DNA of 64,000 bases from a phage: NCBI GenBank assembly GCA_012455605.1, contig GCA_012455605.1_3618.1. One strand, 5' to 3'. The notes under the pieces were generated by a model that was not told the DNA's origin, did no database searches, and was given only the letters and a program-made list of their open reading frames with translations. This document shows positions 1-56,862 of the stretch, piece by piece; within the stretch, counting starts at the first letter, position 1, and each line of letters begins with the position of its first letter. Made by a program: the position numbers and the translations under genes.

Positions 1-957
1 ATGGCGTATTTAAAAGTTTTGATGGACGAGATTTTTGGTCGTGCAAATCAGTTAAATACCATATCGATGACCACAAATTCCCCTTCGGGATTTAAGGCAA
101 CAGGAGCCACAGTTTTCTCCACAGCAAACTTTTTGCTTGTATATGCAAAAGATCGCACCCAGAAGCCGCTTAACAAAATCTATATACCTAAAGGGTATGA
201 TACCGGATATAACAAATACCTATTAAACCCGGATGACCCTTATAAAAATTGGACGTGGTGCGGTATTGCCGATGCGTTTGCAAAGGCCAATGGCTATAAA
301 GATGCAAAAGAAGCCAAGAAAAAACTGCCTGACACATTCGATGATGAATTAGCACAATTTGCAATTGATAATGCAGAACGTGTATTTCAATCTGTTGCAA
401 TTGGTGGTGGTGCTAAAATAAAGAGAAAAGAAACTATAGAGAAGTCAAAGAAAGATAGGGATAAGGTTTATGTACATCCAAATGAGGATGTTGAAGGATT
501 TTATATCGCAAATGGTAGGCAAATGGTCTTTTACTCCAATAGGCTTTTGGAAATTGACGGTGAGATGCAACCTGCGGAACTAATAACTGATGTTTGGACA
601 GACATTAGTTGGAATGGAATAGCAAATGAAGGCGGCGTTAGTTTCAAAAATGGAAAAAAACCAGAAGCGCTTTTGAAGCGGATTTTCGAAATGTGTACGC
701 GAGAAGGCGATTTGGTATTGGATTCATTCGGTGGTTCGGGAACTACTGCTGCTGTAGCTCACAAGATGAAAAGACGTTGGATCTCCATCGAGATCGGTGA
801 TCATTGCCATACCCATATTATTCCGCGCTTGGAAAAAGTGATCGATGGGGAAGATCAAGGTGGTATTTCTAAGTCTGTAAACTGGCAAGGTGGTGGTGGC
901 TTCCGTTATTACAAACTTGCCCCGACCTTAATTGCGAAAGATAAGTCTGATCAATAA
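1..957 (+). CDS. DNA methyltransferase (N6-adenine/N4-cytosine, beta-class-like); may be 5'-truncated by the window edge
   Basis: C-terminal motif I LVLDSFGGSGTTAAVA typical of the N6_N4 MTase family; no DPPY motif seen in the 318 aa, so the gene may start upstream of the window. Confidence 0.7.
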   Translation: MAYLKVLMDEIFGRANQLNTISMTTNSPSGFKATGATVFSTANFLLVYAKDRTQKPLNKIYIPKGYDTGYNKYLLNPDDPYKNWTWCGIADAFAKANGYKDAKEAKKKLPDTFDDELAQFAIDNAERVFQSVAIGGGAKIKRKETIEKSKKDRDKVYVHPNEDVEGFYIANGRQMVFYSNRLLEIDGEMQPAELITDVWTDISWNGIANEGGVSFKNGKKPEALLKRIFEMCTREGDLVLDSFGGSGTTAAVAHKMKRRWISIEIGDHCHTHIIPRLEKVIDGEDQGGISKSVNWQGGGGFRYYKLAPTLIAKDKSDQ

Positions 958-1686: not shown

Positions 1687-2169
1687 ATGTCAGATTTTAT
1701 GTGGAAAGTAGGTTACGCAGCTCCTGAAATGTGTGAGGCTTGCTTTGTGAAAATAGGCCGCGAGGATATCGACAAAGTGATCCTTAAGTTTCGTGATGTA
1801 GCTGTGATCGGCAACCGAGTGCTTAAGCACTTAAAGAATCTGAAGCTCACCAAAAAGAAGTTCTTCGGACTTTTCGAAGAGAAAGTTGATGCTTGGACCC
1901 ATTGCATTCAGGAAGCTAAATCTCACTACAGTGCTATCGTTACCCCAGAACGGGTAGCCAAGATGGAAGGACTCATCAACAGCACAGAGTTTGAGTGCCT
2001 AAAGGCTGCCCTTGATAGTTATCCGAAATGCCTCAAGCACTTGGACAAGTATGTAGAAAAGGATGGGGAAATGTATCTCACCCTGGATGCATACTATGAG
2101 ATGCAAGAAATTTTAAATTTAGATTTGACATTGGTATCCACTGAGTATACAATAGGTATCCGGGTTTAA
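1687..2169 (+). CDS. hypothetical protein
   Basis: 160 aa ORF with GGAG upstream; followed by an intrinsic terminator. Confidence 0.5.
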   Translation: MSDFMWKVGYAAPEMCEACFVKIGREDIDKVILKFRDVAVIGNRVLKHLKNLKLTKKKFFGLFEEKVDAWTHCIQEAKSHYSAIVTPERVAKMEGLINSTEFECLKAALDSYPKCLKHLDKYVEKDGEMYLTLDAYYEMQEILNLDLTLVSTEYTIGIRV

Positions 2170-2175
2170 CACTAG

Positions 2176-2202
2176 GCCCTGCCCGAAAGGGTGGGGCTTT
2201 TG
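2176..2202 (+). terminator. rho-independent terminator (GCCCTGCCC-GAAA-GGGTGGGGC stem-loop then T-tract)
   Basis: 9 bp stem with two G-U wobbles, GAAA tetraloop, TTTTG; near-identical copy at 13196. Confidence 0.65.
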
Positions 2203-2219
2203 CATTAGGAGACAGCAAA

Positions 2220-2984
2220 TTGAAATTTATCTATAAAGAACACTACCACAAAGGTGTTGTGTGGAGTCTATTTGACGGATCTGGCGGTGCAGTCATTGAC
2301 TGGGCAAAAGCTGGATATCTGTGCCTGTGCTTTAACGCAGAAGGTGCTGACCACGGCAGTTATGCAGAGGTGATCACCGATCATCCAAATATTCACTATG
2401 TAGATTATTGGATTGATCCATGGTTCCCTCAGGAAACTTTCTGCATGTACCCAGCTCCGGACTTTGTTCTTGCATTTCCTCCGTGCACCCACTTAGCGGT
2501 GTCAGGTGCTGCACACTTTAAGAAGAAGCTGGCTAAGGACCCGCTGATCCAGATTAATGCTGTAAAGGATGCTCGGGTTGCAGAAGAGTTGGGAGAGATT
2601 TACGATTGCCCGTGGCATGTAGAGAATCCTGTGGGTGTTATGTCCACACTGTGGCGCAAACCTGATTACCGTTTTCACCCTTCTGACTATGGCGGGTATT
2701 TACCGGAGGATGATGTAAACCCCTGGTTTCCTGAATTTATAGCTCCACGTGATGCCTATCCAAAAATAACTTGCGGCTGGATAGGTAATGGATTTATAAT
2801 CCCGGCCACAAAACCTGTCCCGCAAATAGTTGACGCGGTTAGCGGGTATTCCATGCAACACGCCAAGCTGGGTGGAAAGAGTGCAAGAACAAAGATGATT
2901 CGAAGCCTCACACCACGTGGCTGGGCAAAAGCCGTATTCTTAGCAAACGAGCCTGTAGTAAGGAGCAGAATTAATGGGAAGTAA
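2220..2984 (+). CDS. C5-cytosine methyltransferase-like protein (atypical)
   Basis: Motif I-like SLFDGSGG, motif IV-like FPPCTHLAVSGA (PC-T rather than PC-Q), ENV-like HVENPVG, in the order and spacing of C5-MTases; only 254 aa. Confidence 0.5.
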   Translation: MKFIYKEHYHKGVVWSLFDGSGGAVIDWAKAGYLCLCFNAEGADHGSYAEVITDHPNIHYVDYWIDPWFPQETFCMYPAPDFVLAFPPCTHLAVSGAAHFKKKLAKDPLIQINAVKDARVAEELGEIYDCPWHVENPVGVMSTLWRKPDYRFHPSDYGGYLPEDDVNPWFPEFIAPRDAYPKITCGWIGNGFIIPATKPVPQIVDAVSGYSMQHAKLGGKSARTKMIRSLTPRGWAKAVFLANEPVVRSRINGK

Positions 2985-5052
2985 ATTTATGGCATCTGCA
3001 TACAACCGTTTCGGTGAGCCAAACCCGAAAGCAACTAAGTATAAAAGTGGGGGAAGTGTGAAACGAGACTATCGTGATGAAAAAGAAGTTGAAACTGTAG
3101 AGACTGTTTTAGAAAATACTAAAATTGTCCCTGTCCCACAACAAAATATCGGTCTGATGGCTGCACAATATTTTGGTGTGCGATCAGCATTGTCCCAAGA
3201 AGACGGTGTGACAGTTACTGCAACATATTTCCCATATTACGACCGCTACGGAAATCTGTCAGGTTTCAAAAAGCGTGACTGGACGATTCCTAAAGAGCAA
3301 AGGGGCCATTTCTCCGTTGTTGGCATAGTAAAGGCTAACTCCCAGATGTTTGGGCAAAAGCTGTGTGCATCTTCTAACAACCGTAAGCAGATTAACGTTT
3401 GTGAGGGGGAAGGCGATGTTATTGCAGCATGGCAGGCTGCATATCAGATACAAGTAAAAGGGATTCTCACCAACGCTAAAGCCCCGGCAAAGGTGAAACA
3501 GTGGGCTAAAGAGGTCCAGGACGGGATCGATGCAGTTATCAACGGGGGTGACCTGGCAGGAAAACCCTGCCTGCCTTTTGTTGGAATTAACTGTGGATGT
3601 GCAAACGCAGTAGATACTTTTGCAAACAATGAGAAATTTATCCGTAGCTACGGAACAGTGGTCCTTGCAATGGACAACGATGCGGCTAACGAGGTAGAGA
3701 AGCAAAAACACGTTATCAAAGGTGTTGAAGCCACACATAATATTGCAGCATTTTTGATGGCTGACAACGTTTACCACGTGGAATATCCTGGCGAGGTAAA
3801 CGACCCTGATGGTGTAAAAGATATCCGTGACATGCTGAAGGCTAAAAAGCTGGAAGATATTGTAAACATGTTCCGGCATCCTGTTAAGTATGTGCCTGAT
3901 GCTGTGTCGGATTTAGAAGACTTCTCTATCGAATCTTTGCGGAAAAAGACTTCCAACGGGGTAGATATCAGCGCAGAGTTTCCAAAACTGCAAAAAATGC
4001 TAAAAGGCTTGCACAAAGGGACACTCGTAATGCTTACAGGTCCATCAGGAGGTGGTAAAACAACTGTAGCCAAAAAACTGGAACACTGTATTGCAAGATA
4101 CCTAATGGACCCGACATGTCCAAAGGCCGATGACTACGAAGAGGATGATCGTCTATGCATGATTCATCTTGAGGAGGACCCAGAGGAAGCAATTAACTCC
4201 TTGTATGCAAACCAGTTAGGGTTTGATGTTAAAGAGTTTGTTGAAGATCCTAGCCAGTTTCTAACTGATCAAGAACACGCAGAGATTCACCAATCATGGG
4301 CAAAAGCTGGAAAAATCAAAGTGTTCAAACATTTCGGATCTATTCCGGTGGACGAGTTGATTACCAAGCTTAAGCAAATGGTTTGCCTGTACCATTGCCG
4401 TTATATTGTGCTGGATCACCTGTCTATGGTAATTTCAGGGCTTAATGTTAAGGATGAGCGAAAAGAACTGGACATGGCTATGACCCAACTGGCTGCGTTT
4501 TGTAAGCAGTTTAACGTGTTTATCCTAGTGATCGCTCACCTCAAACGTACAGAGATTGTGCCTCCTAAGGACAAGGATGGTAACCCGTTACCTTTCTGGT
4601 ATCCTGTGCGAAAAGAGAATTTGCGAGGATCGGCTGGGCTTGAACAGTTGAGTTGGGTAGTCATAGGTGTTGAGGCTGAAGAAATGGTAGATCGTTCTCG
4701 TGGGCGTGTCCGTTTAGTAGGTCTTAAAAACCGTCCAGCAAAAACATTGGGTATTGCGGATACTTTGGTTATGGACCCGCATACAGGTAAGTTCCATGAT
4801 GCCAGTAATTGGTACTGGGACAAAGAAATGCAGATGTTTACAGACGGAGAAGGTGGGGAGGTTGTTTGGAGACCTCAGGCCATGTTTGAGGACCAAGAGC
4901 ATGCAGTTGTAGAAACACCTATGGGCAAGGTTGTAGCGGATAAGGTTGTAACTCCTACTATTAAGCCTGTTGACACGCAGGAAGACCTCCAGTACGATGA
5001 TCCATCCTCTGATCCGGTCCCCGGTTTTGAAGATGATGAAACACCTTTTTAA
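2974..5052 (+). CDS. DNA primase-helicase (TOPRIM primase fused to DnaB-like helicase)
   Basis: TOPRIM CEGEGD and LAMDNDAANE; Walker A GPSGGGKTT; Walker B IVLDHLS; acidic C-terminus ending EDDETPF. Confidence 0.85.
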   Translation: MGSKFMASAYNRFGEPNPKATKYKSGGSVKRDYRDEKEVETVETVLENTKIVPVPQQNIGLMAAQYFGVRSALSQEDGVTVTATYFPYYDRYGNLSGFKKRDWTIPKEQRGHFSVVGIVKANSQMFGQKLCASSNNRKQINVCEGEGDVIAAWQAAYQIQVKGILTNAKAPAKVKQWAKEVQDGIDAVINGGDLAGKPCLPFVGINCGCANAVDTFANNEKFIRSYGTVVLAMDNDAANEVEKQKHVIKGVEATHNIAAFLMADNVYHVEYPGEVNDPDGVKDIRDMLKAKKLEDIVNMFRHPVKYVPDAVSDLEDFSIESLRKKTSNGVDISAEFPKLQKMLKGLHKGTLVMLTGPSGGGKTTVAKKLEHCIARYLMDPTCPKADDYEEDDRLCMIHLEEDPEEAINSLYANQLGFDVKEFVEDPSQFLTDQEHAEIHQSWAKAGKIKVFKHFGSIPVDELITKLKQMVCLYHCRYIVLDHLSMVISGLNVKDERKELDMAMTQLAAFCKQFNVFILVIAHLKRTEIVPPKDKDGNPLPFWYPVRKENLRGSAGLEQLSWVVIGVEAEEMVDRSRGRVRLVGLKNRPAKTLGIADTLVMDPHTGKFHDASNWYWDKEMQMFTDGEGGEVVWRPQAMFEDQEHAVVETPMGKVVADKVVTPTIKPVDTQEDLQYDDPSSDPVPGFEDDETPF

Positions 5053-5110: not shown

Positions 5111-7540
5111 ATGAGCATGTGGTCGTTCGATTTTGAGTCATCCGGTTTGCTGGAAGACCCAGATCTTTATTATCACTGCGGTCTGTTTAAAGAGTTGAAT
5201 AAGAACCGTTTTATGCTGTTCCTTCCTCTAAATGACCGCACACACTACTCCGAGGAGGATATAGAAAAGGCTAAGAACTTCATTCTGGCAAAGAAAACTC
5301 TTTATAAAGATTTTGAAGTTCGCATAGCAGATTTTTCGGAGTTGGAAGGTTGGCTTACAGGAAATTCTGACTGGTCACCAACAGCTTTGAACTGCCATAA
5401 CTGCTACAGTTATGACTTTATGCTGATGGAAAGATTATCCGGTATTCATTTTGATATGTTCCGTGATCCTAAATGTATGGGGACTATCAACGACCACCAG
5501 GTTAACCTGTTCGATACGTTGGCAATGAGCCGAATCTTGTGGCCTGATCGCCCTTTACCGAAAGGTTGTCCGGACTCTGTATTCAACCCGGTTACTAAAA
5601 AAATGCAGCCTGTTGGTCCTCACGGCCTTATGGCATGGGGCTACGCTCTTGGTAACCAGAAAGTTCAAATTGATGACTGGCGCGATCTTCCGTTGTGGAA
5701 GTATGTGGATCGTGTATTCGAGGACGTTATCATCCAGGAGCTGCTCTGGAAAGAGCTGGTAGCGGAATCAAAAGGTGTATTCTACGGCAAATCTGACATG
5801 CAGAACTTTATGTACGATCCTGCCAAAGAGAAGCCGAAAGGATTCAAGAAGATCACCTGGAAGAACGCATTACGTCGAGGCATGCTGCAGCACTTCCTGA
5901 TGGAGCTGCAGGCCCGTCAGGGCGTATACTTCGACATAGATGGAGCTATTGCTTTACGTGACCGTTGCGATGCGTGGATGAAAGAAATCGCTGATCGTGT
6001 TGAACCACAACTGCCTTTAAAAGAACTGTCAATGTCTCAGCGGCCCAAGTTCCCTGAAAAGCCGTTTAACCAAGACGGGACAATCTCTAATAATGGTTGG
6101 AAATGGTTAAAAGATAAGCTTGGCTATCCTGTAGACATGAGCGCTTTAGAGTTCAAAGCCCCGCCTAAGAGAGCATTTACCTCTACAGGAGATGTCAGCA
6201 AGATGGGGATAAAATGGTGTGAAGAGATGGGATGCAAAGACCCCGATAAGATGGCTGATTTCTTGAGAGGCTATATTAAGGGCACTTCCACACCACACCC
6301 TTTGCCTAAAGAGTTGATGGATCAGGCAATAAGTGATCTACAGCAGAAGCGAATGCCGGACTGCAAGATACCTATGAAAATCAGCAACCAGGACGACATT
6401 AAGCGATACCTGATCAGTGCTGGCTGGCTTCCGACAATGTGGAGAACTAAGGATGTAACTAAAGACAGCAAGAAGAAAGCTTTACCTGATGCAGATGTTG
6501 ATGCACGAGTATATGCATATATGGACGAGCTTTTGGAGTCAGAGTATTGTGACCTAATTATCAACTTCTGGAACAAAACTGATGCTAAGTTCCAGACAAC
6601 CGTGCACAAGTTCCGAAGCTTTCCTAACTCCGAAAGGATTAAAAAGGAAGTATTCGGGAAAATACGTAGAAAAGCCAGGGCACTTATTACTTCTCCGCAA
6701 CTGAAAGATACGTTTGGACACCTATGCCCAAATCTTGAAAAATTGAACGGAGAGATGGCTAAAGATATCGTCTTGTGGTTATCATTGCGAAACCGCAGAT
6801 CGGTCCTTGATCCAATCAAGGAGGATAAGGTTGATACTGGTCTTCTTAATCACCCACGTTTGAAGATTGACCATAAGCTTCCTGCTAAAAGCTCTGGATT
6901 AACAAACACTTCCAGACAGAAACACAGTATTTGTGCAAACATGCCTAAACCATCTCCTAAAGTAGTTATGGGTAAAGAGATGCGTAGTCTGTGGGGTGTT
7001 CCTCCAGGATACTTTGAGATCGGTATTGACGGGTCCAACTTAGAGCAGCTTATCGGGGCTTGGGGTGCCTTTGAGTTCGACAACGGCCTGTATTACGATG
7101 TTGTAAGTAACGGAGACGCACACCAAAACAATGCTGAGGCATATACAAAAGTAGCAGGCAGAGAGGTGTCTCGTAACGACGGTAAACCTATCACGTATGG
7201 GGTTATGTATGGGGCACAAAAAGATAAAGTTGCAGATATGCTGGACATCTCTCCAGAGTTGGGACAAAGGGTAATCGATGCACTCTGGGATGCCAACCCT
7301 GGTCTTAAGGGGCGTAAAGAAGATCTGGAGAAATTCTGGGAAGCAACGGGTAAGAAGTTTATCTACTCTTTTGATGGTCATGCTATCTGGACCCGATCTA
7401 AACACTCTTTACTTAATGCATACCAACAAAATGGCGGCGCATCGTTGTGTGACTTAGTTGGGATACTCATGCACCATCAAATGGTGAAGCGTGGGTGGTA
7501 CGATGAAGGTGTTCGTCGTATTATTTATTACCATAAATAA
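5111..7540 (+). CDS. DNA polymerase, family A, with 3'-5' exonuclease domain
   Basis: Exo I FDFESSG, Exo II YSYDF; motif A-like IDGSNLEQL; motif B-like RNDGKPITYGVMYGAQ (T7 Pol-like). Confidence 0.8.
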   Translation: MSMWSFDFESSGLLEDPDLYYHCGLFKELNKNRFMLFLPLNDRTHYSEEDIEKAKNFILAKKTLYKDFEVRIADFSELEGWLTGNSDWSPTALNCHNCYSYDFMLMERLSGIHFDMFRDPKCMGTINDHQVNLFDTLAMSRILWPDRPLPKGCPDSVFNPVTKKMQPVGPHGLMAWGYALGNQKVQIDDWRDLPLWKYVDRVFEDVIIQELLWKELVAESKGVFYGKSDMQNFMYDPAKEKPKGFKKITWKNALRRGMLQHFLMELQARQGVYFDIDGAIALRDRCDAWMKEIADRVEPQLPLKELSMSQRPKFPEKPFNQDGTISNNGWKWLKDKLGYPVDMSALEFKAPPKRAFTSTGDVSKMGIKWCEEMGCKDPDKMADFLRGYIKGTSTPHPLPKELMDQAISDLQQKRMPDCKIPMKISNQDDIKRYLISAGWLPTMWRTKDVTKDSKKKALPDADVDARVYAYMDELLESEYCDLIINFWNKTDAKFQTTVHKFRSFPNSERIKKEVFGKIRRKARALITSPQLKDTFGHLCPNLEKLNGEMAKDIVLWLSLRNRRSVLDPIKEDKVDTGLLNHPRLKIDHKLPAKSSGLTNTSRQKHSICANMPKPSPKVVMGKEMRSLWGVPPGYFEIGIDGSNLEQLIGAWGAFEFDNGLYYDVVSNGDAHQNNAEAYTKVAGREVSRNDGKPITYGVMYGAQKDKVADMLDISPELGQRVIDALWDANPGLKGRKEDLEKFWEATGKKFIYSFDGHAIWTRSKHSLLNAYQQNGGASLCDLVGILMHHQMVKRGWYDEGVRRIIYYHK

Positions 7541-7674
7541 CATTGTGGCTTCGTGCAGTGATGCACGTCGAAAACCTCTTTAATTGACGGGAAGGCTAAG
7601 TTGACTTTTACACCTAAACATGGTAAAAGCTCAATATGCTAATCCGCAGCGAAGACTAAAGGGGTGTAGTTAAA

Positions 7675-8181
7675 ATGGCTAGATCAGTTGATTATCACGG
7701 ATATACCGTGTTTGATGATGGAACAATACCTTTATCGAAACGTGATCATACAACAATGTTTTGTTTTGATAATGGTCGAGGTTACCTTTGCGTAACCATG
7801 TTCATCGAAGGGAAGCAGTGCACAAAAGGTGTCCACCACTTGGTTGCCGAATGCTTTGTATCAAACCCTGATCCTGAAAGGCTCACATGGGTGAACCATA
7901 AGGACGGAAACAAATACAACAATGCATACTGGAACCTTGAATGGACCACCCCTGGTGGAAATATCAAACACGCTTATGATAATGACCTCAGAGTAAGGCC
8001 AGTCGGTGAGTATAATGCCAACGCTGTGCTGACCGAGGATGAGGTAACGGAGATTTGCGAGCTGTTACAGAGTGGTCTACGACAATGCGAGATTAGGGAT
8101 CTTGGGTACCCTTATGAGACGGTCAGAGCCATAAAGCAAAGAAGACAGTGGAAACATATCTCTAAAAACTACACCTGGTAG
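7675..8181 (+). CDS. HNH homing endonuclease (HNH_3/NUMOD-like)
   Basis: VNHKDGNKYNNAYWNLEW HNH motif; N-terminal YHGYTVFDDG; sits directly after the polymerase gene. Confidence 0.75.
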   Translation: MARSVDYHGYTVFDDGTIPLSKRDHTTMFCFDNGRGYLCVTMFIEGKQCTKGVHHLVAECFVSNPDPERLTWVNHKDGNKYNNAYWNLEWTTPGGNIKHAYDNDLRVRPVGEYNANAVLTEDEVTEICELLQSGLRQCEIRDLGYPYETVRAIKQRRQWKHISKNYTW

Positions 8182-8373
8182 TAACGTTCAGAGACTATCG
8201 AAAGCATAGCGCCAACATAAATTGGTGCGAAGAAGCGAGTAGAGTAGGCCAGCAAGTGCGGTCGAAATGGGAGGTGCCTTGGTAACAAGGTAGTGAGATA
8301 GTCCGATCCATACAGGAAACTGTATGGCTGTGCACGTAATGGTGCGGGGTAGCTTAACGACCTACCTGAACTA

Positions 8374-8730
8374 TTGGATGAGTACCAACTTCAGGTCCCT
8401 GACACACCTAAGTATAAGACTGTGTACACCTTCGACACAATCGAAGAACTGGAAGCATTTAAGGCAGAGCAGGAGGCCAAACTTCATGTGTTCGACGGTC
8501 ATAAGTACAAAAAGGCACGCAAGGATGAGGACGGAAACGAAGTGGTTGACAGAGACGGAAACACGGTGTACGATCCTATCCTGAACGATGACGGAAAGCT
8601 TGAACTTATCTGGAGCCCTGTGGGTGAAATGGTGGTGCATTGCTTCTGGCAAGCTTCTAAAATGATGGGCGTCCCGTTCCAGATCACAGGTGAATACCTG
8701 TGTGGTCGTAATTGGGGTGATTGTCACTAA
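8374..8730 (+). CDS. hypothetical protein
   Basis: 118 aa ORF; no recognisable motif. Confidence 0.4.
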   Translation: MDEYQLQVPDTPKYKTVYTFDTIEELEAFKAEQEAKLHVFDGHKYKKARKDEDGNEVVDRDGNTVYDPILNDDGKLELIWSPVGEMVVHCFWQASKMMGVPFQITGEYLCGRNWGDCH

Positions 8731-28559: not shown

Positions 28560-29440
28560 CCTGCATAAAATAATTATTCGTGTAAACTGCATAACATAAA
28601 TCAGCTTATGTGTCAACATTCTTGGTAAACAGTCCGAAATTGTAATGGTAAGTTATAATAAACAGAGAAATCTTTAGTCGTCTAATGTTTACTGTACATA
28701 ACTATACTGACTGGAATCATTAGATGACTAAGAGAAAGATAAGAAATCATTAACAATGCAATTGTTTTATTCGTAACAATAAGGCAACTATGCAAACGAA
28801 TGGCATGGCGCGACGGAGTCGCGACATAATATAAAAGCAGTAACCATCACCCCCGTGATAGTTTGTCTGCAAACTATTAATCAGATCATAGTTGCCTTGT
28901 ATTTAGTTAATCATGACATAACAAGCAAGGCAACTATAGATCTTCTAATAGTTGCCCTGCTTTTATATTATGTCATCTATTGTAAACAAGTTAATTATTG
29001 TCATGCAAACGAATGTCATGGCTTATCATTTTTGAGTAAACAATCTATGCGTGAACAGTTAGCTATGTAAACTATTAGACATGTAAACTATTGAGAATGT
29101 AAACAGTAAAGGGAGTGAATAGTGATAGCGTAAACAGTCAGGCATGTCAATTATGTTCAGTGTCACCATTATGTCATATTGTGTCACAGTATGCCCAGTA
29201 TGTCAGACAAGTTTTTCTCCTCTTTGTCAAGTGCTGCATGAAAAATTTACAATCTGGTATGGTAGCATTTTTGCGGCCCTGTTTACATTCAGTTGTGTAT
29301 GTATAAGCCTTGTTGTGTGGGCGTTTAGACGTCTAGACGGTTGGAAGTCTACAGGTCAATATCTAATCTATTGGTTGCTAACTATATCCCACACAAATAG
29401 TAAGAAATATAATTGTTATGTGTGTAAACTGTAACTCATG
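28560..29440. repeat. AT-rich iteron-like region (TGTAAAC units, AAGGCAACTAT inverted repeats)
   Basis: At least 10 (A)TGTAAAC(A/T) units including three tandem at 29063-29108; AAGGCAACTAT forward at 28781 and 28927, reverse at 28888 and 28948; GCAAACGAATG(G/T)CATGG twice. Confidence 0.6.
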
Positions 29441-41959: not shown

Positions 41960-42313
41960 CTACCAGGTTACTGTCAAGTAGGCAACCGTATTATTTTTCT
42001 CTGGGGAGATGCCAACAACATCTACCTGCAGACCTCCTGCCCTTAAATCTCCAACAATGTGCGGGAAGTAATCTGAGAGATGCGAGGGTAGATTTATCGA
42101 AAATCCGCACCCCAGAAAGCCTGCTAACGCTTTATTTTGTATCTCCCCCACAATCGCATCATAAATGGAGTTAAGCTCGTCAGGAAGCGTTACAGGACGT
42201 TTTAGCGCTAACTGGTGTAATTTGTCCTTAGCACTCATTTTCATTTCAGGTCTACCTCTGGAGGTGCCAACCACATAAATGGCGGCAGGTCTAAACGGTT
42301 CTTCTTGTCCCAC
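41960..42313 (-). CDS. hypothetical protein
   Basis: 117 aa. Confidence 0.4.
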   Translation of the reverse strand: MGQEEPFRPAAIYVVGTSRGRPEMKMSAKDKLHQLALKRPVTLPDELNSIYDAIVGEIQNKALAGFLGCGFSINLPSHLSDYFPHIVGDLRAGGLQVDVVGISPEKNNTVAYLTVTW

Positions 42314-42774
42314 ACAAAATATGCATATGCTTGCCCGTCAGTTCTGCCATTCGATTGGAATGATGGACGCTTAGATATTGTGATCACAGTGGTAGGTGCA
42401 TTATCAAGCCACCATTCAAATCTGGCTTTGCTTTCCAAAAAATTAAGACGCAAAAGCATAATAACTACGTCAGCATCTTTCAACGCCTTGTCTACAAACT
42501 CACGAGCCAGGCTGTACGGTGGGTTGGTGATAATACAGTCAACATGGTTGTATTCTGTATTCAGATAGTCAACACCTTCTTGGATTTCTCCCCATGCAGA
42601 TCCTAACGGCATACGGGAGTAGAACACACCTGAGGCGCTATTCCTGCAAGGCTCTAGGTAGGTCCAGTCTTCTGGGAACGGAATAAGGTCATACAGCCCT
42701 TCTGCACACCACTCCGGTGTCACATACTCATCGTAGGCGTTACGTTGTTCATCAGGTTTTCTAGCACAAGTCAT
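42241..42774 (-). CDS. small N6-adenine methyltransferase-like protein
   Basis: YVTPEW...YLEPCRNSASGVFY then DCIITNPPYS (motif IV NPPY); 177 aa. Confidence 0.55.
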   Translation of the reverse strand: MTCARKPDEQRNAYDEYVTPEWCAEGLYDLIPFPEDWTYLEPCRNSASGVFYSRMPLGSAWGEIQEGVDYLNTEYNHVDCIITNPPYSLAREFVDKALKDADVVIMLLRLNFLESKARFEWWLDNAPTTVITISKRPSFQSNGRTDGQAYAYFVWDKKNRLDLPPFMWLAPPEVDLK

Positions 42775-52987: not shown

Positions 52988-53971
52988 TTAACCTTTCACG
53001 AAGTGGTTATTAAGCAGTTGTCTGTGCTGAACCCACCCACAAAAGTTGGCAGACCAGAATTTACCATCACGGTCTTGATGGGTTACACCTTCCTGCCAAG
53101 TACTGATGTCTTGTGTGATTTCACATGAAGACAGGTAGTAGTTTAAACGTTCCATTGCGTTATCGTGATCCATAGGTGTTGCCTGGTGCTCGTAAGGGCT
53201 TGCATGAATACGATCCCCACCAATCAATTTTTTAGCCACACTATCTGCCTTTTCAAACGTGCTGTCAATATTTCGATAAGATACTTGTGCACAGCAACTA
53301 GCACTGATAGACAGAGCTTCTTTAGTATCGAGAATGCAGAGCTTTCCTTCTGTGTCACGTACAGCGTAGTTAAACTCTCCGTCCAAATAAACGTGCTCTA
53401 CATATGGGGTGTGCCATTGACCCGGTTTAAGGATTTCAGGAGTGCTATTCTCAAGAGCCTCCCACATACAATTAGCTAACATCTGAATCGTAGGATCCGC
53501 ATCGTGCCAGCAACGGAGGTGGAAAAAATTATTCCACTCGGTGCTTGTTACAACTGTTTTCATGCGCTGGAACGGCTCCACTAAGCGGTTACATACTTGC
53601 TTATGGTAACCAGCAAGGGCGAACTTCTCTGCATGCCAAGCGGCGTTTTTTGCAGCTTCTTTCCAAAACTCTTCAGGAGTTAGCTCCATGTCAGTGTACT
53701 CTACACGGATCTTTTGATCGTGTTCCCCACCATCTTCCATTCCTCGCTTATTTACACCGAAGCGAACTGGCATTGCCGGATTCTCCACAATCTGTTGCAG
53801 CATCTTGCCGACAGGTACTGCACGGGAAGACATGGCGTTTCGGCTGAACACTCGGTGCGTCATAAGCTCTGAGTGAATAATTCGAGGATACTCTAGTTCA
53901 AAAGTGGTGATACGCTTACCTTTCTCGGAAATGCTGTCAGCAATAATCTTTGCAGTGCACAGTTTTAGCAT
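52988..53971 (-). CDS. thyX: ThyX-like FAD-dependent thymidylate synthase
   Basis: MTHRVFSRNAMSSRA resembles the ThyX RHR-x7-S signature (first Arg replaced by Thr); neighbours are nucleotide-metabolism genes. Confidence 0.55.
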   Translation of the reverse strand: MLKLCTAKIIADSISEKGKRITTFELEYPRIIHSELMTHRVFSRNAMSSRAVPVGKMLQQIVENPAMPVRFGVNKRGMEDGGEHDQKIRVEYTDMELTPEEFWKEAAKNAAWHAEKFALAGYHKQVCNRLVEPFQRMKTVVTSTEWNNFFHLRCWHDADPTIQMLANCMWEALENSTPEILKPGQWHTPYVEHVYLDGEFNYAVRDTEGKLCILDTKEALSISASCCAQVSYRNIDSTFEKADSVAKKLIGGDRIHASPYEHQATPMDHDNAMERLNYYLSSCEITQDISTWQEGVTHQDRDGKFWSANFCGWVQHRQLLNNHFVKG

Positions 53972-54172: not shown

Positions 54173-54766
54173 TCAAATACCTTCTAAAAATTTTCCTATT
54201 TTATACCAGCTATTAGCGGTATAGTCAACACTGACCTTTAACTCCTCGAATTGCTCATAAGGCGTATCTTTTAGGATTTTAATAACTTCAGGTCGTGAAG
54301 CGAATTGGTTCAGGTATTCATGCCTGTCGTCAATTATAACATCTACAGCCACATTCCCTTTGAAATGTGTGGCGTAGAAGCCGTGGCCCTGGGTGTGATC
54401 GTCCAGATCCATAAAATCACTGGTCCAACGCTTTAAGAACCTTGATTTAGATGCAAGGTGACCTTTCTTGCATACCGAGATAAATGCAAGCTTGTGACCA
54501 CGAGCCACCAAATCTTTCATAACCTCAATAGCCCCCTCTTCAGGCTTAAGGAAGTCGTAGAGGAACGGATCACTCCAGAAATCAAAAGGTCCTATGATGT
54601 TTTCTTTGGGACGATCAGGCCAATACTTTGACAGATCGTAATACATTAGCCCATTAGAAGGTTTAGCTACTGTCTTACTGGCTGGACCATACAAACGCTC
54701 CAACCACTCCCACCATGCTGTTCCTGAATCTACCAGTGTCAGATCTACATCAATTCCGATTAACAT
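54173..54766 (-). CDS. HAD-family phosphatase, putative 5'-deoxyribonucleotidase
   Basis: N-terminal IGIDVDLTLVD matches the HAD DxDx(T/V) motif; sits next to the dNMP kinase. Confidence 0.55.
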   Translation of the reverse strand: MLIGIDVDLTLVDSGTAWWEWLERLYGPASKTVAKPSNGLMYYDLSKYWPDRPKENIIGPFDFWSDPFLYDFLKPEEGAIEVMKDLVARGHKLAFISVCKKGHLASKSRFLKRWTSDFMDLDDHTQGHGFYATHFKGNVAVDVIIDDRHEYLNQFASRPEVIKILKDTPYEQFEELKVSVDYTANSWYKIGKFLEGI

Positions 54767-55592: not shown

Positions 55593-56051
55593 TTAGAAGT
55601 TTGTTTTTACACGTCCCTTCTCATCAACCTCGTTGTTAGCTAAAAGCGTTACAAAGTCTGTGAAACGAACATGAAGAACCCTTTTCTTATCAAGGTATCC
55701 TAAAGCCACCCCTGAGAAATTTAGCATCAAAGGGGCTAAAGAAGCTCTGGCACTGAAATGCTGTTGTTCTACCCTTCCAACACCCTTAGTGTAGGATGGG
55801 TTAAGATTGTAAGTTCTGAATCCCAGTTTTGTTGGAGCTTTAGAATTAAAAACGACTTTATAGCGTTTCTTACTCAACTTATGCTCCAGGATAAGCATTC
55901 CCTTATCACCTTTGATAAGTTGAAAATCTGTAAAGTGCTCTTTTAAGACGAAAGGTAGTGCCAGTCCCATCGCCTGTCCTCTTTGTACCGCTGTCTCACC
56001 AAAAGCTTTTGCATCAGTAAGTTCTTTGGTCAAGTCTATGCTTTTGATCAT
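55593..56051 (-). CDS. hypothetical protein
   Basis: 152 aa. Confidence 0.45.
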   Translation of the reverse strand: MIKSIDLTKELTDAKAFGETAVQRGQAMGLALPFVLKEHFTDFQLIKGDKGMLILEHKLSKKRYKVVFNSKAPTKLGFRTYNLNPSYTKGVGRVEQQHFSARASLAPLMLNFSGVALGYLDKKRVLHVRFTDFVTLLANNEVDEKGRVKTNF

Positions 56052-56862
56052 ACCTGGTCTCCAAAATGTATTGTAGTTCTTTCTTACCTATACTCTTCAT
56101 TCCAGCAGTCTTACCTGCTTCTTCTTGAAAAGAAGAATAGCATTCAGCAAACACTCTGTCAACACCGTTAACTAAAGATTTTATGAAATATGTTGATTCT
56201 TCAGATTTTGGGTCATCATCCCCCAATACTTTTCCAGCATTATACCCAACACGTCTTACACAGAAGTCGTAGTCATCTGGTGTGCTAAAAGAAAATAACT
56301 TATTCTCTCCAATCTCTACAGGATCCCTATTGCACGCCTTTTTCTCCCAAATTTGGAAAACACATGGCACGTCATAAGGTTTGCCATTAAGTAAAAACGA
56401 ATTCTTAGGGCACCTTTCGCTGTAGACAAGGTGCATCGACATGTCCAGTTTGTTTGCAAAAAATATTTTTTCAAATGTCCGTGGCAAGATGAAGGCTATA
56501 GCCCCTCCAAGCTCTAGCAATGATGCACAATGGTTAAAGAATTTGCAAGCTAAGGATGAATTCTTGCCAAATGGTGGGTTACCTATGAAGACATCTGCCT
56601 TGGGATGCACCTCCAAGAAGTTTGCCTGAATGCACGGTGTTGGTCCTTCAAATTCAGGATCTGGTACTAAATCGTACGACAGTATCTCTGAAAATAGTTT
56701 TGAAAAAGAACCCCTTCCAGCAGAAGGCTCAACGTATGCACAATTCCCATACTTATCTTTTACTTTACCAACAAGATATTCTGCATACTCAGGGTTTGTG
56801 TAGTATTTGTCGTTGGACTCTTTCTTGCTCAAAGTGCCTCCAAAAGGAAAAGGGAGGCGCAA
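56014..56862 (-). CDS. N6-adenine DNA methyltransferase (gamma-class, M.TaqI-like motif order)
   Basis: YYTNPEYAEYLV (TP motif), YVEPSAGRGSF (motif I), DVFIGNPPFG (motif IV). Confidence 0.7.
   Translation of the reverse strand: MRLPFPFGGTLSKKESNDKYYTNPEYAEYLVGKVKDKYGNCAYVEPSAGRGSFSKLFSEILSYDLVPDPEFEGPTPCIQANFLEVHPKADVFIGNPPFGKNSSLACKFFNHCASLLELGGAIAFILPRTFEKIFFANKLDMSMHLVYSERCPKNSFLLNGKPYDVPCVFQIWEKKACNRDPVEIGENKLFSFSTPDDYDFCVRRVGYNAGKVLGDDDPKSEESTYFIKSLVNGVDRVFAECYSSFQEEAGKTAGMKSIGKKELQYILETRYDQKHRLDQRTY

What the first reader, a model, noticed from the sequence alone, without database searches (positions are those of the whole stretch)
2220..2984. Atypical short C5-cytosine-methyltransferase-like protein with PC-T in place of PC-Q
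Motifs appear in C5-MTase order (FDGSGG, FPPCTHLAVSGA, ENPVG), but the protein is only 254 aa, the invariant Gln after the catalytic Cys is Thr, and no target-recognition domain is obvious. It sits directly upstream of the primase-helicase and polymerase, so it could be a DNA base-modifying enzyme rather than a classical methyltransferase.
Basis: partly seen in the sequence, partly recalled or inferred. Interest (0 to 1): 0.6.

Follow-up and report, generated by a model that had tools for sequence, protein, structure and literature searches.

The report
Compact phage DNA cytosine-5 methyltransferase
This gene encodes an unusually small phage enzyme that puts methyl groups on cytosines in DNA; it belongs to a very common, already annotated phage family with one experimentally studied member, so it is real but largely ordinary.

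Summary
The ORF at 2220-2984 (+) is real: 254 aa, TTG start with an AGGAG Shine-Dalgarno, and the motifs FDGSGG, FPPC-T and ENPVG as described. The window is an rV5-like (Vequintavirus) coliphage. The same protein (99.6% identical) is already annotated in GenBank as 'Dcm-like C5 cytosine methyltransferase'. It belongs to a huge clade of uniformly compact (about 210-260 aa) phage and prophage proteins (PHROG 757; 2047 clusters at 50% identity) that Pfam PF00145 detects only marginally. Its predicted fold (pLDDT 89) matches only C5-cytosine methyltransferases at the top, DNMT3A/B best. A 53%-identical homologue from the Drexlerviridae phage K42/KarlJaspers also has PC-T. That enzyme raised 5-methylcytosine in retron Ec86 msDNA (LC-MS) and triggers that retron. 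PC-T is the family norm, DNMT3 enzymes have PC-N, and so the missing Gln does not signal new chemistry. The window has no CmoA, ligase or hydroxymethylase partner, and Vequintavirinae are reported highly sensitive to restriction. The 'hypermodifying enzyme' idea is therefore not supported. Still open: the sequence specificity (CCWGG is assumed, not shown) and how so small a recognition module reads DNA.

The parts
2220..2984 (+). Compact orphan DNA C5-cytosine methyltransferase gene (254 aa, TTG start; end includes the stop codon)
   Evidence: ORF and translation. PHROG 757 'DNA methyltransferase' at E 1.1e-86. 99.6% identical to MaxBurger bas54_0074 'Dcm-like C5 cytosine methyltransferase'. 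53% identical (E 4e-86) to KarlJaspers Dcm. AF2 model pLDDT 89, with C5-MTases as the top fold matches.
2271..2288 (+). Motif I, FDGSGG (aa 18-23): SAM-binding glycine loop after strand beta1
   Evidence: Aligned to DNMT3A FDGIAT and HaeIII/HhaI F-x-G-x-G. S16, G20, S21 and G22 are at least 90% conserved in A1.
2475..2510 (+). Motif IV, FPPCTHLAVSGA (aa 86-97): catalytic nucleophile Cys89, followed by Thr90 in place of the usual Gln
   Evidence: C89 is invariant and P87/P88/T90 are at least 90% conserved. Aligned to DNMT3A SPCNDLS. Equivalent to C82 of K42/KarlJaspers Dcm, one of the four residues changed together in the inactive quadruple mutant.
2622..2636 (+). Motif VI, ENPVG (aa 135-139): Glu135, which protonates cytosine N3 in the canonical mechanism
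   Evidence: E135-N136-P137 are invariant in 69 diverse members. Aligned to DNMT3A FENV. Equivalent to E128 of K42 Dcm.
2697..2762 (+). Family-specific insertion of about 22 aa (aa 160-181, YLPEDDVNPWFPEFIAPRDAYP) between the 'DYGG' turn and strand beta7
   Evidence: It appears as a gap opposite DNMT3 in the profile-profile alignment. L161, D165, P168, P171, D178 and Y180 are invariant in A1. It is absent in some distant members such as P0265 and P0266. Its function is inferred: a DNA or active-site loop.
2763..2789 (+). Motif VIII-like strand beta7, KITCGWIGN (aa 182-190)
   Evidence: Aligned to DNMT3A R-Y-F-W-G-N. K182 and W187 are invariant and T184 is at least 90% conserved. K182 corresponds to K175 of K42 Dcm; the second Lys (K176) is Ile183 here.
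2871..2936 (+). Conserved basic C-terminal signature GGKSARTKMIRSLTPRGWAKAV (aa 218-239): candidate minimal DNA-recognition / motif IX-like element
   Evidence: G218, G219, T224, K225, I227, R228, S229, L230, P232 and R233 are invariant in A1. P232 and G234 are invariant and R228/T231 at least 90% conserved in A2. There are weak, non-significant local matches to Dcm motif IX RRLTPRECARLM (E 1.2) and to the DNMT3A TRD loop GRIAKFSKVRTIT (E 0.17). The assignment is unresolved.
2207..2211 (+). Shine-Dalgarno AGGAG, 8 nt upstream of the TTG start
   Evidence: Read directly from the sequence.
2125..2153 (+). Sigma-70-like promoter TTGACA-17-TACAAT (11 of 12) upstream of the gene
   Evidence: Consensus scan. 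This is a pattern match only. A similar promoter class is reported near the helicase, methylase and polymerase genes of related Certrevirus phages.
2974..5052 (+). Primase/helicase gene, overlapping the MTase stop by 11 nt (possible translational coupling; context only)
   Evidence: ORF list. PHROG 239 at E 6.6e-160 and DnaB_C.

Best explanation
The ORF encodes an orphan, SAM-dependent DNA cytosine-C5 methyltransferase of a compact phage-specific clade (PHROG 757, the 'phage Dcm-like' enzymes). It is transcribed and probably translationally coupled with the primase/helicase and polymerase genes, so it is made while phage DNA replicates. By inference from the canonical C5-MTase mechanism, the target cytosine is flipped out. 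Cys89 (motif IV, PC-T) attacks C6, Glu135 (motif VI, ENP) protonates N3, and the methyl group of SAM held by the motif I loop (FDGSGG) is transferred to C5. Beta-elimination then releases 5-methylcytosine. DNA reading must rely on a very small module: the 22-aa insertion at aa 160-181 plus the basic C-terminal signature GGKS-RTK-IRSLTPRG. The likely biological role is self-methylation of phage DNA to blunt cytosine-sensitive restriction. A side effect is that such enzymes can be sensed by retron Ec86/Eco1. Shown here: the ORF, family membership, conservation of catalytic residues, and the fold. Shown in the literature for a 53%-identical homologue: 5mC formation and retron triggering. Inferred: activity of this particular protein, its target sequence (possibly CCWGG, unproven), and its anti-restriction role.
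Against: No experiment exists for this protein or for any Vequintavirus. The window protein itself gets no Pfam or NCBIfam hit. The second Lys of the pair mutated in K42 Dcm is Ile183 here. A canonical motif VIII Arg and a motif X (GN-V-P) could not be located. The target-recognition region is tiny. The CCWGG specificity in the preprint is assumed by analogy, and the experiments were done in a dcm+ host. BASEL found no simple link between phage methyltransferase genes and restriction resistance in Drexlerviridae, and Vequintavirinae are very RM-sensitive, so the anti-restriction benefit is unproven.
Confidence: 0.86

Rival explanations
1. It is a C5-carboxymethyl (or other non-methyl) transferase like phage CmoX. 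It would use carboxy-SAM supplied by the host CmoA and install a handle for hypermodification.
Against: The homologous K42 Dcm produced 5mC in a cmoA+ K-12 host. The CmoX signature SPPC is FPPC here and throughout the close family. There is no CmoA, CmoY-type ligase or ParB-domain gene in the window or in the annotated relative, nor in two other family contexts. DNMT3A also has an Arg in motif X (GRSW) yet is a methyltransferase. Vequintavirinae are highly RM-sensitive.
Confidence: 0.04
2. It is a nucleic-acid m5C methyltransferase whose real substrate is not duplex phage DNA. It could be a tRNA/RNA enzyme like Dnmt2, or prefer single-stranded or hairpin DNA at replication forks.
Against: DNA methyltransferases (DNMT3A/B, CmoX, the CP-933R MTase, HaeIII, HhaI) rank above Dnmt2. 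The msDNA target is a double-stranded DNA stem. Thousands of phages keep the gene next to DNA-metabolism genes.
Confidence: 0.05
3. It is a catalytically dead methyltransferase-like protein that only binds DNA or SAM, for example as a regulator, a SAM sponge or a decoy.
For: There is no Pfam hit. Motif II carries Asn39 where most distant members have Asp. K176 of K42 Dcm is Ile183 here. No clear motif VIII Arg or motif X was found. A few distant members have lost the Cys, such as P0238.
Against: The catalytic Cys, the ENP Glu and the glycine loop are invariant across about 70 diverse members, including this one. The protein is 53% identical to an enzyme with demonstrated activity that depends on those residues. 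The same Asn39 state is shared by that active homologue (CFN).
Confidence: 0.04
4. The motifs are a coincidence in an unrelated Rossmann-like protein.
For: Single-sequence searches against Pfam, NCBIfam and the PDB give nothing significant.
Confidence: 0.01

Closest known systems
Phage K42 / KarlJaspers (Bas06) 'Dcm', the trigger of retron Ec86/Eco1 (Wang et al., bioRxiv 10.1101/2023.08.16.553469; Cell Rep 2024;43:114857)
   Same: Same family (PHROG 757). 53% identity over the full length, E 4e-86. Same compact single-domain architecture (236 vs 254 aa). Same FPPC-T, ENPV, P-K-x-T-C-x-W and GGKS-RTK-IRSLTPRG motifs. Both are orphan genes in lytic coliphages.
   Different: The host phage family differs (Drexlerviridae siphovirus vs Vequintavirus myovirus). 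The window protein has a 12-aa N-terminal extension, His91 instead of Asp after PC-T, and Ile183 in place of the second Lys (K176). Here the gene is fused into the primase/helicase-polymerase operon. No activity or retron data exist for the Vequintavirus protein.
Eukaryotic DNMT3A/DNMT3B catalytic domain
   Different: Only about 14% identity. DNMT3 has about 285 aa with clear motifs IX and X and a dimerisation helix, whereas this protein ends about 20 aa after its last conserved motif. DNMT3 reads CpG as an oligomer; the oligomeric state and specificity here are unknown.
Classical bacterial C5-MTases (M.HhaI, M.HaeIII, E. coli Dcm; Pfam PF00145)
   Same: Same fold and the same order of motifs I, IV and VI. 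The expected chemistry is the same: Cys nucleophile, Glu, SAM.
   Different: These enzymes have 327-472 aa with an 80-aa or larger TRD, PC-Q, Q-x-R-x-R and GN-x-V-P motifs. The window protein gets no PF00145 hit, and relatives match only profile positions 4-94 of 324. There is no significant similarity to E. coli Dcm (BLASTP E 1.2), so 'Dcm-like' is a functional nickname and not orthology.
SpCmoX, phage DNA cytosine C5-carboxymethyltransferase (PDB 8yf3; Nat Commun 2025, PMC12783734)
   Different: CmoX has 333 aa, SPPC and Arg350 replacing the motif X Asn, uses Cx-SAM, and sits with CmoA and CmoY. Here the motif is FPPC, there are no partner genes, and the family's studied member makes 5mC.

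Membership tests
Compact phage 'Dcm-like' C5-MTases (PHROG 757; K42/KarlJaspers Dcm) | Significant full-length sequence similarity to family members | tested here: met
   phrog_757 at E 1.1e-86, covering aa 2-251. 53% identity and E 4e-86 to KarlJaspers bas06_0055. 3530 homologues.
Compact phage 'Dcm-like' C5-MTases (PHROG 757; K42/KarlJaspers Dcm) | Residues equivalent to the K42 Dcm catalytic/binding set C82, E128, K175, K176 | tested here: met
   C89, E135 and K182 are present and invariant in the family. The fourth residue (K176) is Ile183 here and is not conserved in the diverse alignment. Three of four are met, including both catalytic residues.
Compact phage 'Dcm-like' C5-MTases (PHROG 757; K42/KarlJaspers Dcm) | Single-domain protein of about 210-260 aa, orphan (no endonuclease partner), in a phage or prophage | tested here: met
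   254 aa. Neighbours are replication genes. Other members lie in a lambdoid prophage nin region and in a T7-like temperate phage.
Compact phage 'Dcm-like' C5-MTases (PHROG 757; K42/KarlJaspers Dcm) | Produces 5-methylcytosine in DNA | not testable with these tools
   Shown only for K42 Dcm, by LC-MS on msDNA.
C5-cytosine methyltransferase superfamily (Pfam PF00145 DNA_methylase) | Score above the Pfam gathering threshold (22 bits) | tested here: not met
   No PF00145 hit for the window protein even at E<=1. KarlJaspers Dcm scores 11.1 bits. The relatives P0070, P0072 and P0054 score 24.7-28.5 bits, but only over profile positions 4-94 of 324.
C5-cytosine methyltransferase superfamily (Pfam PF00145 DNA_methylase) | Motif I (F-x-G-x-G), motif IV (P-C) and motif VI (E-N-V), in that order | tested here: met
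   FDGSGG, FPPC and ENP aligned in register to DNMT3 and invariant or near-invariant in the family.
C5-cytosine methyltransferase superfamily (Pfam PF00145 DNA_methylase) | Motif VIII Arg (Q-x-R-x-R), motif IX (R-x-L-T-x-R-E) and motif X (G-N-x-V-P) | tested here: inconclusive
   Strand beta7 aligns (T184-C-G-W-I-G-N to R-Y-F-W-G-N), but Thr184 sits opposite the DNMT3A Arg. RSLTPRG resembles motif IX only at non-significant levels (E 1.2). No motif X was found. Residue-level superposition was not available.
C5-cytosine methyltransferase superfamily (Pfam PF00145 DNA_methylase) | C5-MTase catalytic-domain fold | tested here: met
C5-cytosine methyltransferase superfamily (Pfam PF00145 DNA_methylase) | Sizeable target-recognition domain between motifs VIII and IX | tested here: not met
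   Only about 37 aa separate N190 from R228, plus a 22-aa insertion before beta7. That compares with about 85 aa in HhaI and about 60 aa in DNMT3A (reference sizes are from my knowledge of those structures).
CmoX DNA cytosine C5-carboxymethyltransferases | SPPC motif | tested here: not met
   FPPC here. The close family shows 117 PPCT and 3 PPCD, preceded by Phe. The criterion is from PMC12783734.
CmoX DNA cytosine C5-carboxymethyltransferases | Arg replacing the motif X Asn (R350 vs HhaI N304) to bind the Cx-SAM carboxylate | tested here: inconclusive
   The equivalent position could not be mapped. R233 is not conserved in the diverse family; R228 is.
CmoX DNA cytosine C5-carboxymethyltransferases | Neighbouring CmoA (Cx-SAM synthase) and/or CmoY-type amide ligase | tested here: not met
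   None in the window or in the annotated relative over the same 64 kb. None in L005 or L006.
E. coli Dcm / EcoRII-type CCWGG methyltransferases (orthology) | Detectable sequence similarity to Dcm, including its TRD | tested here: not met
   BLASTP best E 1.2 over 12 residues. hhalign of the family profile vs Dcm gives E 0.24, motifs I-VI only.

The most novel reading that the evidence does not exclude
The 'Dcm-like' label may be wrong about specificity. This roughly 250-aa enzyme may be a minimal DNMT3-like cytosine methyltransferase that reads only a very short motif (2-3 bp, for example a CC/GG-containing core), or a DNA structure at the replication fork. It would do so through the conserved basic GGKS-RTK-IRSLTPRG loop and the 22-aa insertion, possibly as a dimer. 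If so, it marks phage DNA differently from host Dcm. That would explain why retron Ec86 fires on the phage enzyme but not on host Dcm in dcm+ cells.
Probability: 0.3. Interest if true: 0.5.

Novelty: already known. Interest (0 to 1): 0.22.

Why it matters
The finding itself adds little. The gene is already annotated as a cytosine methyltransferase in over a hundred near-identical phage genomes, and a homologue has been characterised. It is still useful in three ways. First, it documents that a very large clade (about 2000 50%-identity clusters) of the smallest C5-MTases seen in this study falls outside Pfam and NCBIfam models, so many members are still labelled 'hypothetical'. Second, it flags that the family's sequence specificity and DNA-recognition mechanism have never been determined. 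Third, it predicts that rV5-like therapeutic phages carry a potential trigger for retron Ec86/Eco1 and a source of 5mC that type IV restriction systems could target. Both points bear on host range.

Tried and rejected
Single-sequence searches of the window protein against Pfam, NCBIfam and PDB sequences found nothing useful.

hhalign of the family profile against single DNMT3A, HhaI or E. coli Dcm sequences reached only motifs I-IV or I-VI.

I tried three ways to map the C-terminal signature onto motif IX, motif X or the TRD loop: Pfam scans of ten C-terminal fragments (no hits), local hhalign of C-terminal sub-alignments (E 0.17-0.2), and BLASTP to Dcm (E 1.2). All were non-significant, so the residue equivalent to HhaI N304 / CmoX R350 stays unassigned. 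Model coordinates are not exposed, so I could not superpose structures myself.

The HhaI homologue search returned only sequences at least 71% identical to HhaI, too uniform for a good profile.

Word-frequency analysis of CCWGG and other cytosine palindromes in the window was uninformative (CCWGG observed/expected 0.88).

The published Cell Reports version of the retron study is not held in the library. Literature searches for methylome data on rV5-like or Drexlerviridae phages found none.

I rejected chance motif co-occurrence, a dCMP-hydroxymethylase pathway (the window's thymidylate synthase is ThyX-type), and membership of a restriction-modification pair (no endonuclease neighbour).

Full report
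OBSERVATION

An AGGAG Shine-Dalgarno lies at 2207-2211, 8 nt upstream. The closest annotated relative uses the same 765-nt CDS.

The three motifs are present:
- FDGSGG, aa 18-23.
- FPPCTHLAVSGA, aa 86-97, with Cys89 followed by Thr90.
- ENPVG, aa 135-139.

The gene overlaps the primase/helicase ORF (2974-5052) by 11 nt, and the family-A DNA polymerase follows at 5111.

WHAT THE WINDOW IS

The first 8.2 kb is 96-98% identical to rV5-like Vequintavirus coliphages, including isim, APECc02, FFH2, rV5_ev146 and several BASEL phages. The protein is 99.6% identical to MaxBurger bas54_0074. That gene is annotated 'Dcm-like C5 cytosine methyltransferase' and sits in the same order: N6-adenine MTase, three small ORFs, this gene, primase/helicase, polymerase.

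THE FAMILY

The window protein gets no Pfam or NCBIfam hit but matches PHROG 757 'DNA methyltransferase' at E 1.1e-86.
- tblastn finds it in 1502 phage records: Vequintavirinae, Drexlerviridae including the Klebsiella weberviruses, Seunavirus, Certrevirus, Kagunavirus-like and some T4-like phages. Annotations range from 'hypothetical protein' to 'C-5 cytosine DNA methylase'.
- The large protein collection holds 3530 homologues, all about 220-260 aa.
- An exhaustive HMMER search of 1.84 billion representatives finds 2047 clusters at E<=1e-3 and 202 at E<=1e-30. Almost all of the best 150 are 200-260 aa.
- In a diverse 69-sequence alignment the invariant residues are C89, E135-N136-P137, P154, Y180, K182, W187, P195, P232 and G234. 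T90, T184, R228 and T231 are at least 90% conserved.
- The residue after the catalytic Cys is Thr in 117 of 120 close members. In distant members it is Thr, Asp, Glu or Asn, and never Gln.

The compact size and PC-T are therefore stable features of a large clade. They are not peculiar to this phage.

HOMOLOGY TO C5-MTASES

The sequence evidence is weak but consistent.
- 22 of 30 members touch PF00145 (best E 1.3e-6).
- Three of eight tested individually exceed its 22-bit threshold, always over profile positions 4-94 of 324, which cover motifs I-IV only.
- The family profile finds DNMT3B and M.HaeIII in the PDB at E 0.26-0.56.
- Against a 61-sequence DNMT3 catalytic-domain alignment that I built, hhalign gives 91% probability and E 1e-6 over 204 columns. 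Motif I (FDGSG/FDGIA), motif IV (PPCT/SPCN), motif VI (ENP/ENV) and the motif VIII strand (CGWIGN/YFWGN) are all in register.

The structure evidence is clearer.
- An AlphaFold2 model built on the family alignment has mean pLDDT 89.2 and pTM 0.89.
- All 50 listed Foldseek PDB hits are DNMT3A/B/C methyltransferase structures or the CP-933R prophage MTase (best E 5.7e-6).
- In the viral structure library the best matches are short phage 'DNA-cytosine methylases' (TM up to 0.91).

The motifs are therefore homologous to those of C5-MTases and did not arise by chance.

THE KEY EXTERNAL EVIDENCE

A retron study (bioRxiv 10.1101/2023.08.16.553469; published as Cell Rep 2024;43:114857) isolated escapers of retron Ec86 from phage K42, which is 95.4% identical to BASEL phage KarlJaspers.
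- All escapers disrupted a 711-bp gene called dcm.
- Expressing it was toxic only with the retron present.
- LC-MS showed high 5-methylcytosine in msDNA with the wild-type enzyme, and low levels with a C82A/E128A/K175A/K176A mutant or with empty vector.

I fetched KarlJaspers (MZ501090). Its 711-bp gene bas06_0055 encodes 236 aa in which C82 lies in FPPCTDL, E128 in IENPV and K175/K176 in FKKTC. It is 53% identical to the window protein over essentially the full length (E 4e-86).

THE HYPERMODIFICATION RIVAL

The most concrete version is CmoX, a phage C5-MTase homologue that transfers carboxymethyl from Cx-SAM (PMC12783734). It is defined by an SPPC motif, by Arg350 replacing the motif X Asn, and by neighbouring CmoA and CmoY genes. 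Host CmoA in E. coli can supply the cofactor.

Against this rival:
- The motif here is FPPC.
- The window and its annotated relative contain no CmoA, ligase or ParB-domain gene over the whole 64 kb. Two unrelated family contexts have none either: a lambdoid prophage nin region and a T7-like temperate phage.
- The window's thymidylate synthase is ThyX-type and not a hydroxymethylase.
- The K42 homologue gave 5mC in a cmoA+ host.
- BASEL reports that Vequintavirinae are exceptionally susceptible to RM systems, which argues against dense or bulky modification.

One item stays open. I could not determine which residue, if any, corresponds to HhaI N304 / CmoX R350. I put this rival at about 4%.

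HOW IT PROBABLY WORKS

By homology, the protein binds SAM with the motif I loop and flips the target cytosine. Cys89 attacks C6, Glu135 protonates N3, the methyl group is transferred to C5, and elimination releases the product.

What differs from textbook enzymes is everything after motif VI.
- A conserved 22-aa insertion (aa 160-181) precedes strand beta7.
- Thr184 sits opposite the DNMT3A motif VIII Arg in the profile alignment, although K182 is invariant.
- Only about 37 residues separate beta7 from the strongly conserved basic signature GGKS-RTK-IRSLTPRG-x-A-x-AV, after which a single helix ends the protein.

That signature resembles motif IX of Dcm (RRLTPRECARLM; 6 of 12 identical, E 1.2) and the DNMT3A TRD loop (GRIAKFSKVRTIT; E 0.17). 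Neither match is significant, and no separate motif X was found. I regard this module as the likely DNA-reading element, but that is inference.

Expression is probably tied to replication. A near-consensus sigma-70 promoter (TTGACA-17-TACAAT, 2125-2153) and a stable hairpin (2174-2199, -20.5 kcal/mol, z -3.5) precede the gene. Its stop overlaps the primase/helicase start. Across the family the gene often neighbours helicases and is once fused to one.

WHAT IS NOT KNOWN

The sequence specificity is not established. 'Dcm-like' is a nickname: the protein has no significant similarity to E. coli Dcm.

The preprint assumes CCWGG because the msDNA stem contains CCTGG, and changing either C abolished defence. 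Those experiments were done in dcm+ MG1655, where host Dcm should already mark that site, yet the retron stayed silent. Either host Dcm cannot reach msDNA or the phage enzyme marks DNA differently. A recognition module this small would more naturally read a short motif.

CCWGG frequency in the window is unremarkable (observed/expected 0.88). I found no methylome data for rV5-like phages.

VERDICT

Its speculative part, a non-methyl base modification, is unsupported.

The gene is already annotated as a cytosine methyltransferase in many near-identical genomes and belongs to a family with an experimentally studied member, so I rate it 'already known' with low interest (0.22). I put about 0.86 on the main explanation, that it is an active 5mC-forming DNA methyltransferase. 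I put about 0.3 on the reading that its specificity and recognition mode differ from Dcm.

Noticed in passing
window 5111-8727 (+); insertion 7535-8376: The DNA polymerase gene is split. Residues 1-808 of the intact MaxBurger polymerase map to 5111-7534 and residues 809-925 to 8377-8727. The 842-nt insertion carries an HNH homing-endonuclease ORF (7675-8181). It matches the Rfam group I intron model RF00028 over its full length (7525-8326, 40.6 bits, below the gathering score of 50, E 1.3e-8). This is probably a mobile group I intron that some close relatives lack.
   Followed up: partly
window 2125-2201 (+): A near-consensus sigma-70 promoter (TTGACA-17-TACAAT, 11 of 12) is followed within about 20 nt by a strong GAAA-tetraloop hairpin plus a U-run (2174-2201, -20.5 kcal/mol, z -3.5), just before the MTase start. 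A promoter placed before a terminator-like hairpin is an odd order. The hairpin may terminate the upstream gene, attenuate transcription, or stabilise the 5' end.
   Followed up: partly
window 1-957 (+), 42241-42774 (-), 56014-56862 (-): The window holds three further methyltransferase-like genes: an N6_N4_Mtase that runs off the window start (E 4e-25); a 177-aa ORF with a weak EcoRI_methylase match (E 4e-4); and a 282-aa ORF annotated 'putative N6 adenine methyltransferase' in MaxBurger that has no Pfam hit. The phage therefore carries up to four DNA MTase genes yet is reported to be RM-sensitive.
   Followed up: partly
window 52988-53971 (-), 54173-54766 (-): The 327-aa 'thymidylate synthase' is ThyX-type (Pfam Thy1, E 1.7e-9) and matches only profile positions 60-191. 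Next to it is an NT5C-like deoxypyrimidine 5'-nucleotidase (E 4.4e-6).
   Followed up: no
GenBank records MG065644, MG065690, MG065635 and others: Sixteen records named 'Campylobacter phage' with host Campylobacter jejuni are 93-98% identical at the nucleotide level to this E. coli rV5-like phage over 8.2 kb. This looks like mislabelling or contamination of those unannotated records.
   Followed up: no
window 28774-28974: There is a cluster of direct and inverted copies of ATAGTTGCC[CT]TG, plus an 18-nt perfect inverted repeat (28823-28840 / 28957-28974). It lies in a region poor in long ORFs near the point where gene orientation switches from + to -. It could hold regulatory, terminator or origin elements. 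No tRNA genes were found anywhere in the window.
   Followed up: no
P0256, P0269, P0238; BFVD A0A6J5SE15: Some distant family members are fusions or variants. Some have long low-complexity, eukaryote- or giant-virus-like N-terminal extensions (401-453 aa). One is a 1397-aa helicase fusion. At least one (P0238) has lost the catalytic Cys (APPGRDLS).
   Followed up: no
L005 4494-6747 (E. coli prophage, GCA_053566455.1): In a lambdoid E. coli prophage the family member sits in the nin region, two genes downstream of a Dam-family adenine MTase and upstream of NinG, RusA and the Q antiterminator. The compact C5-MTase therefore also circulates in temperate phages of the same host.
   Followed up: no
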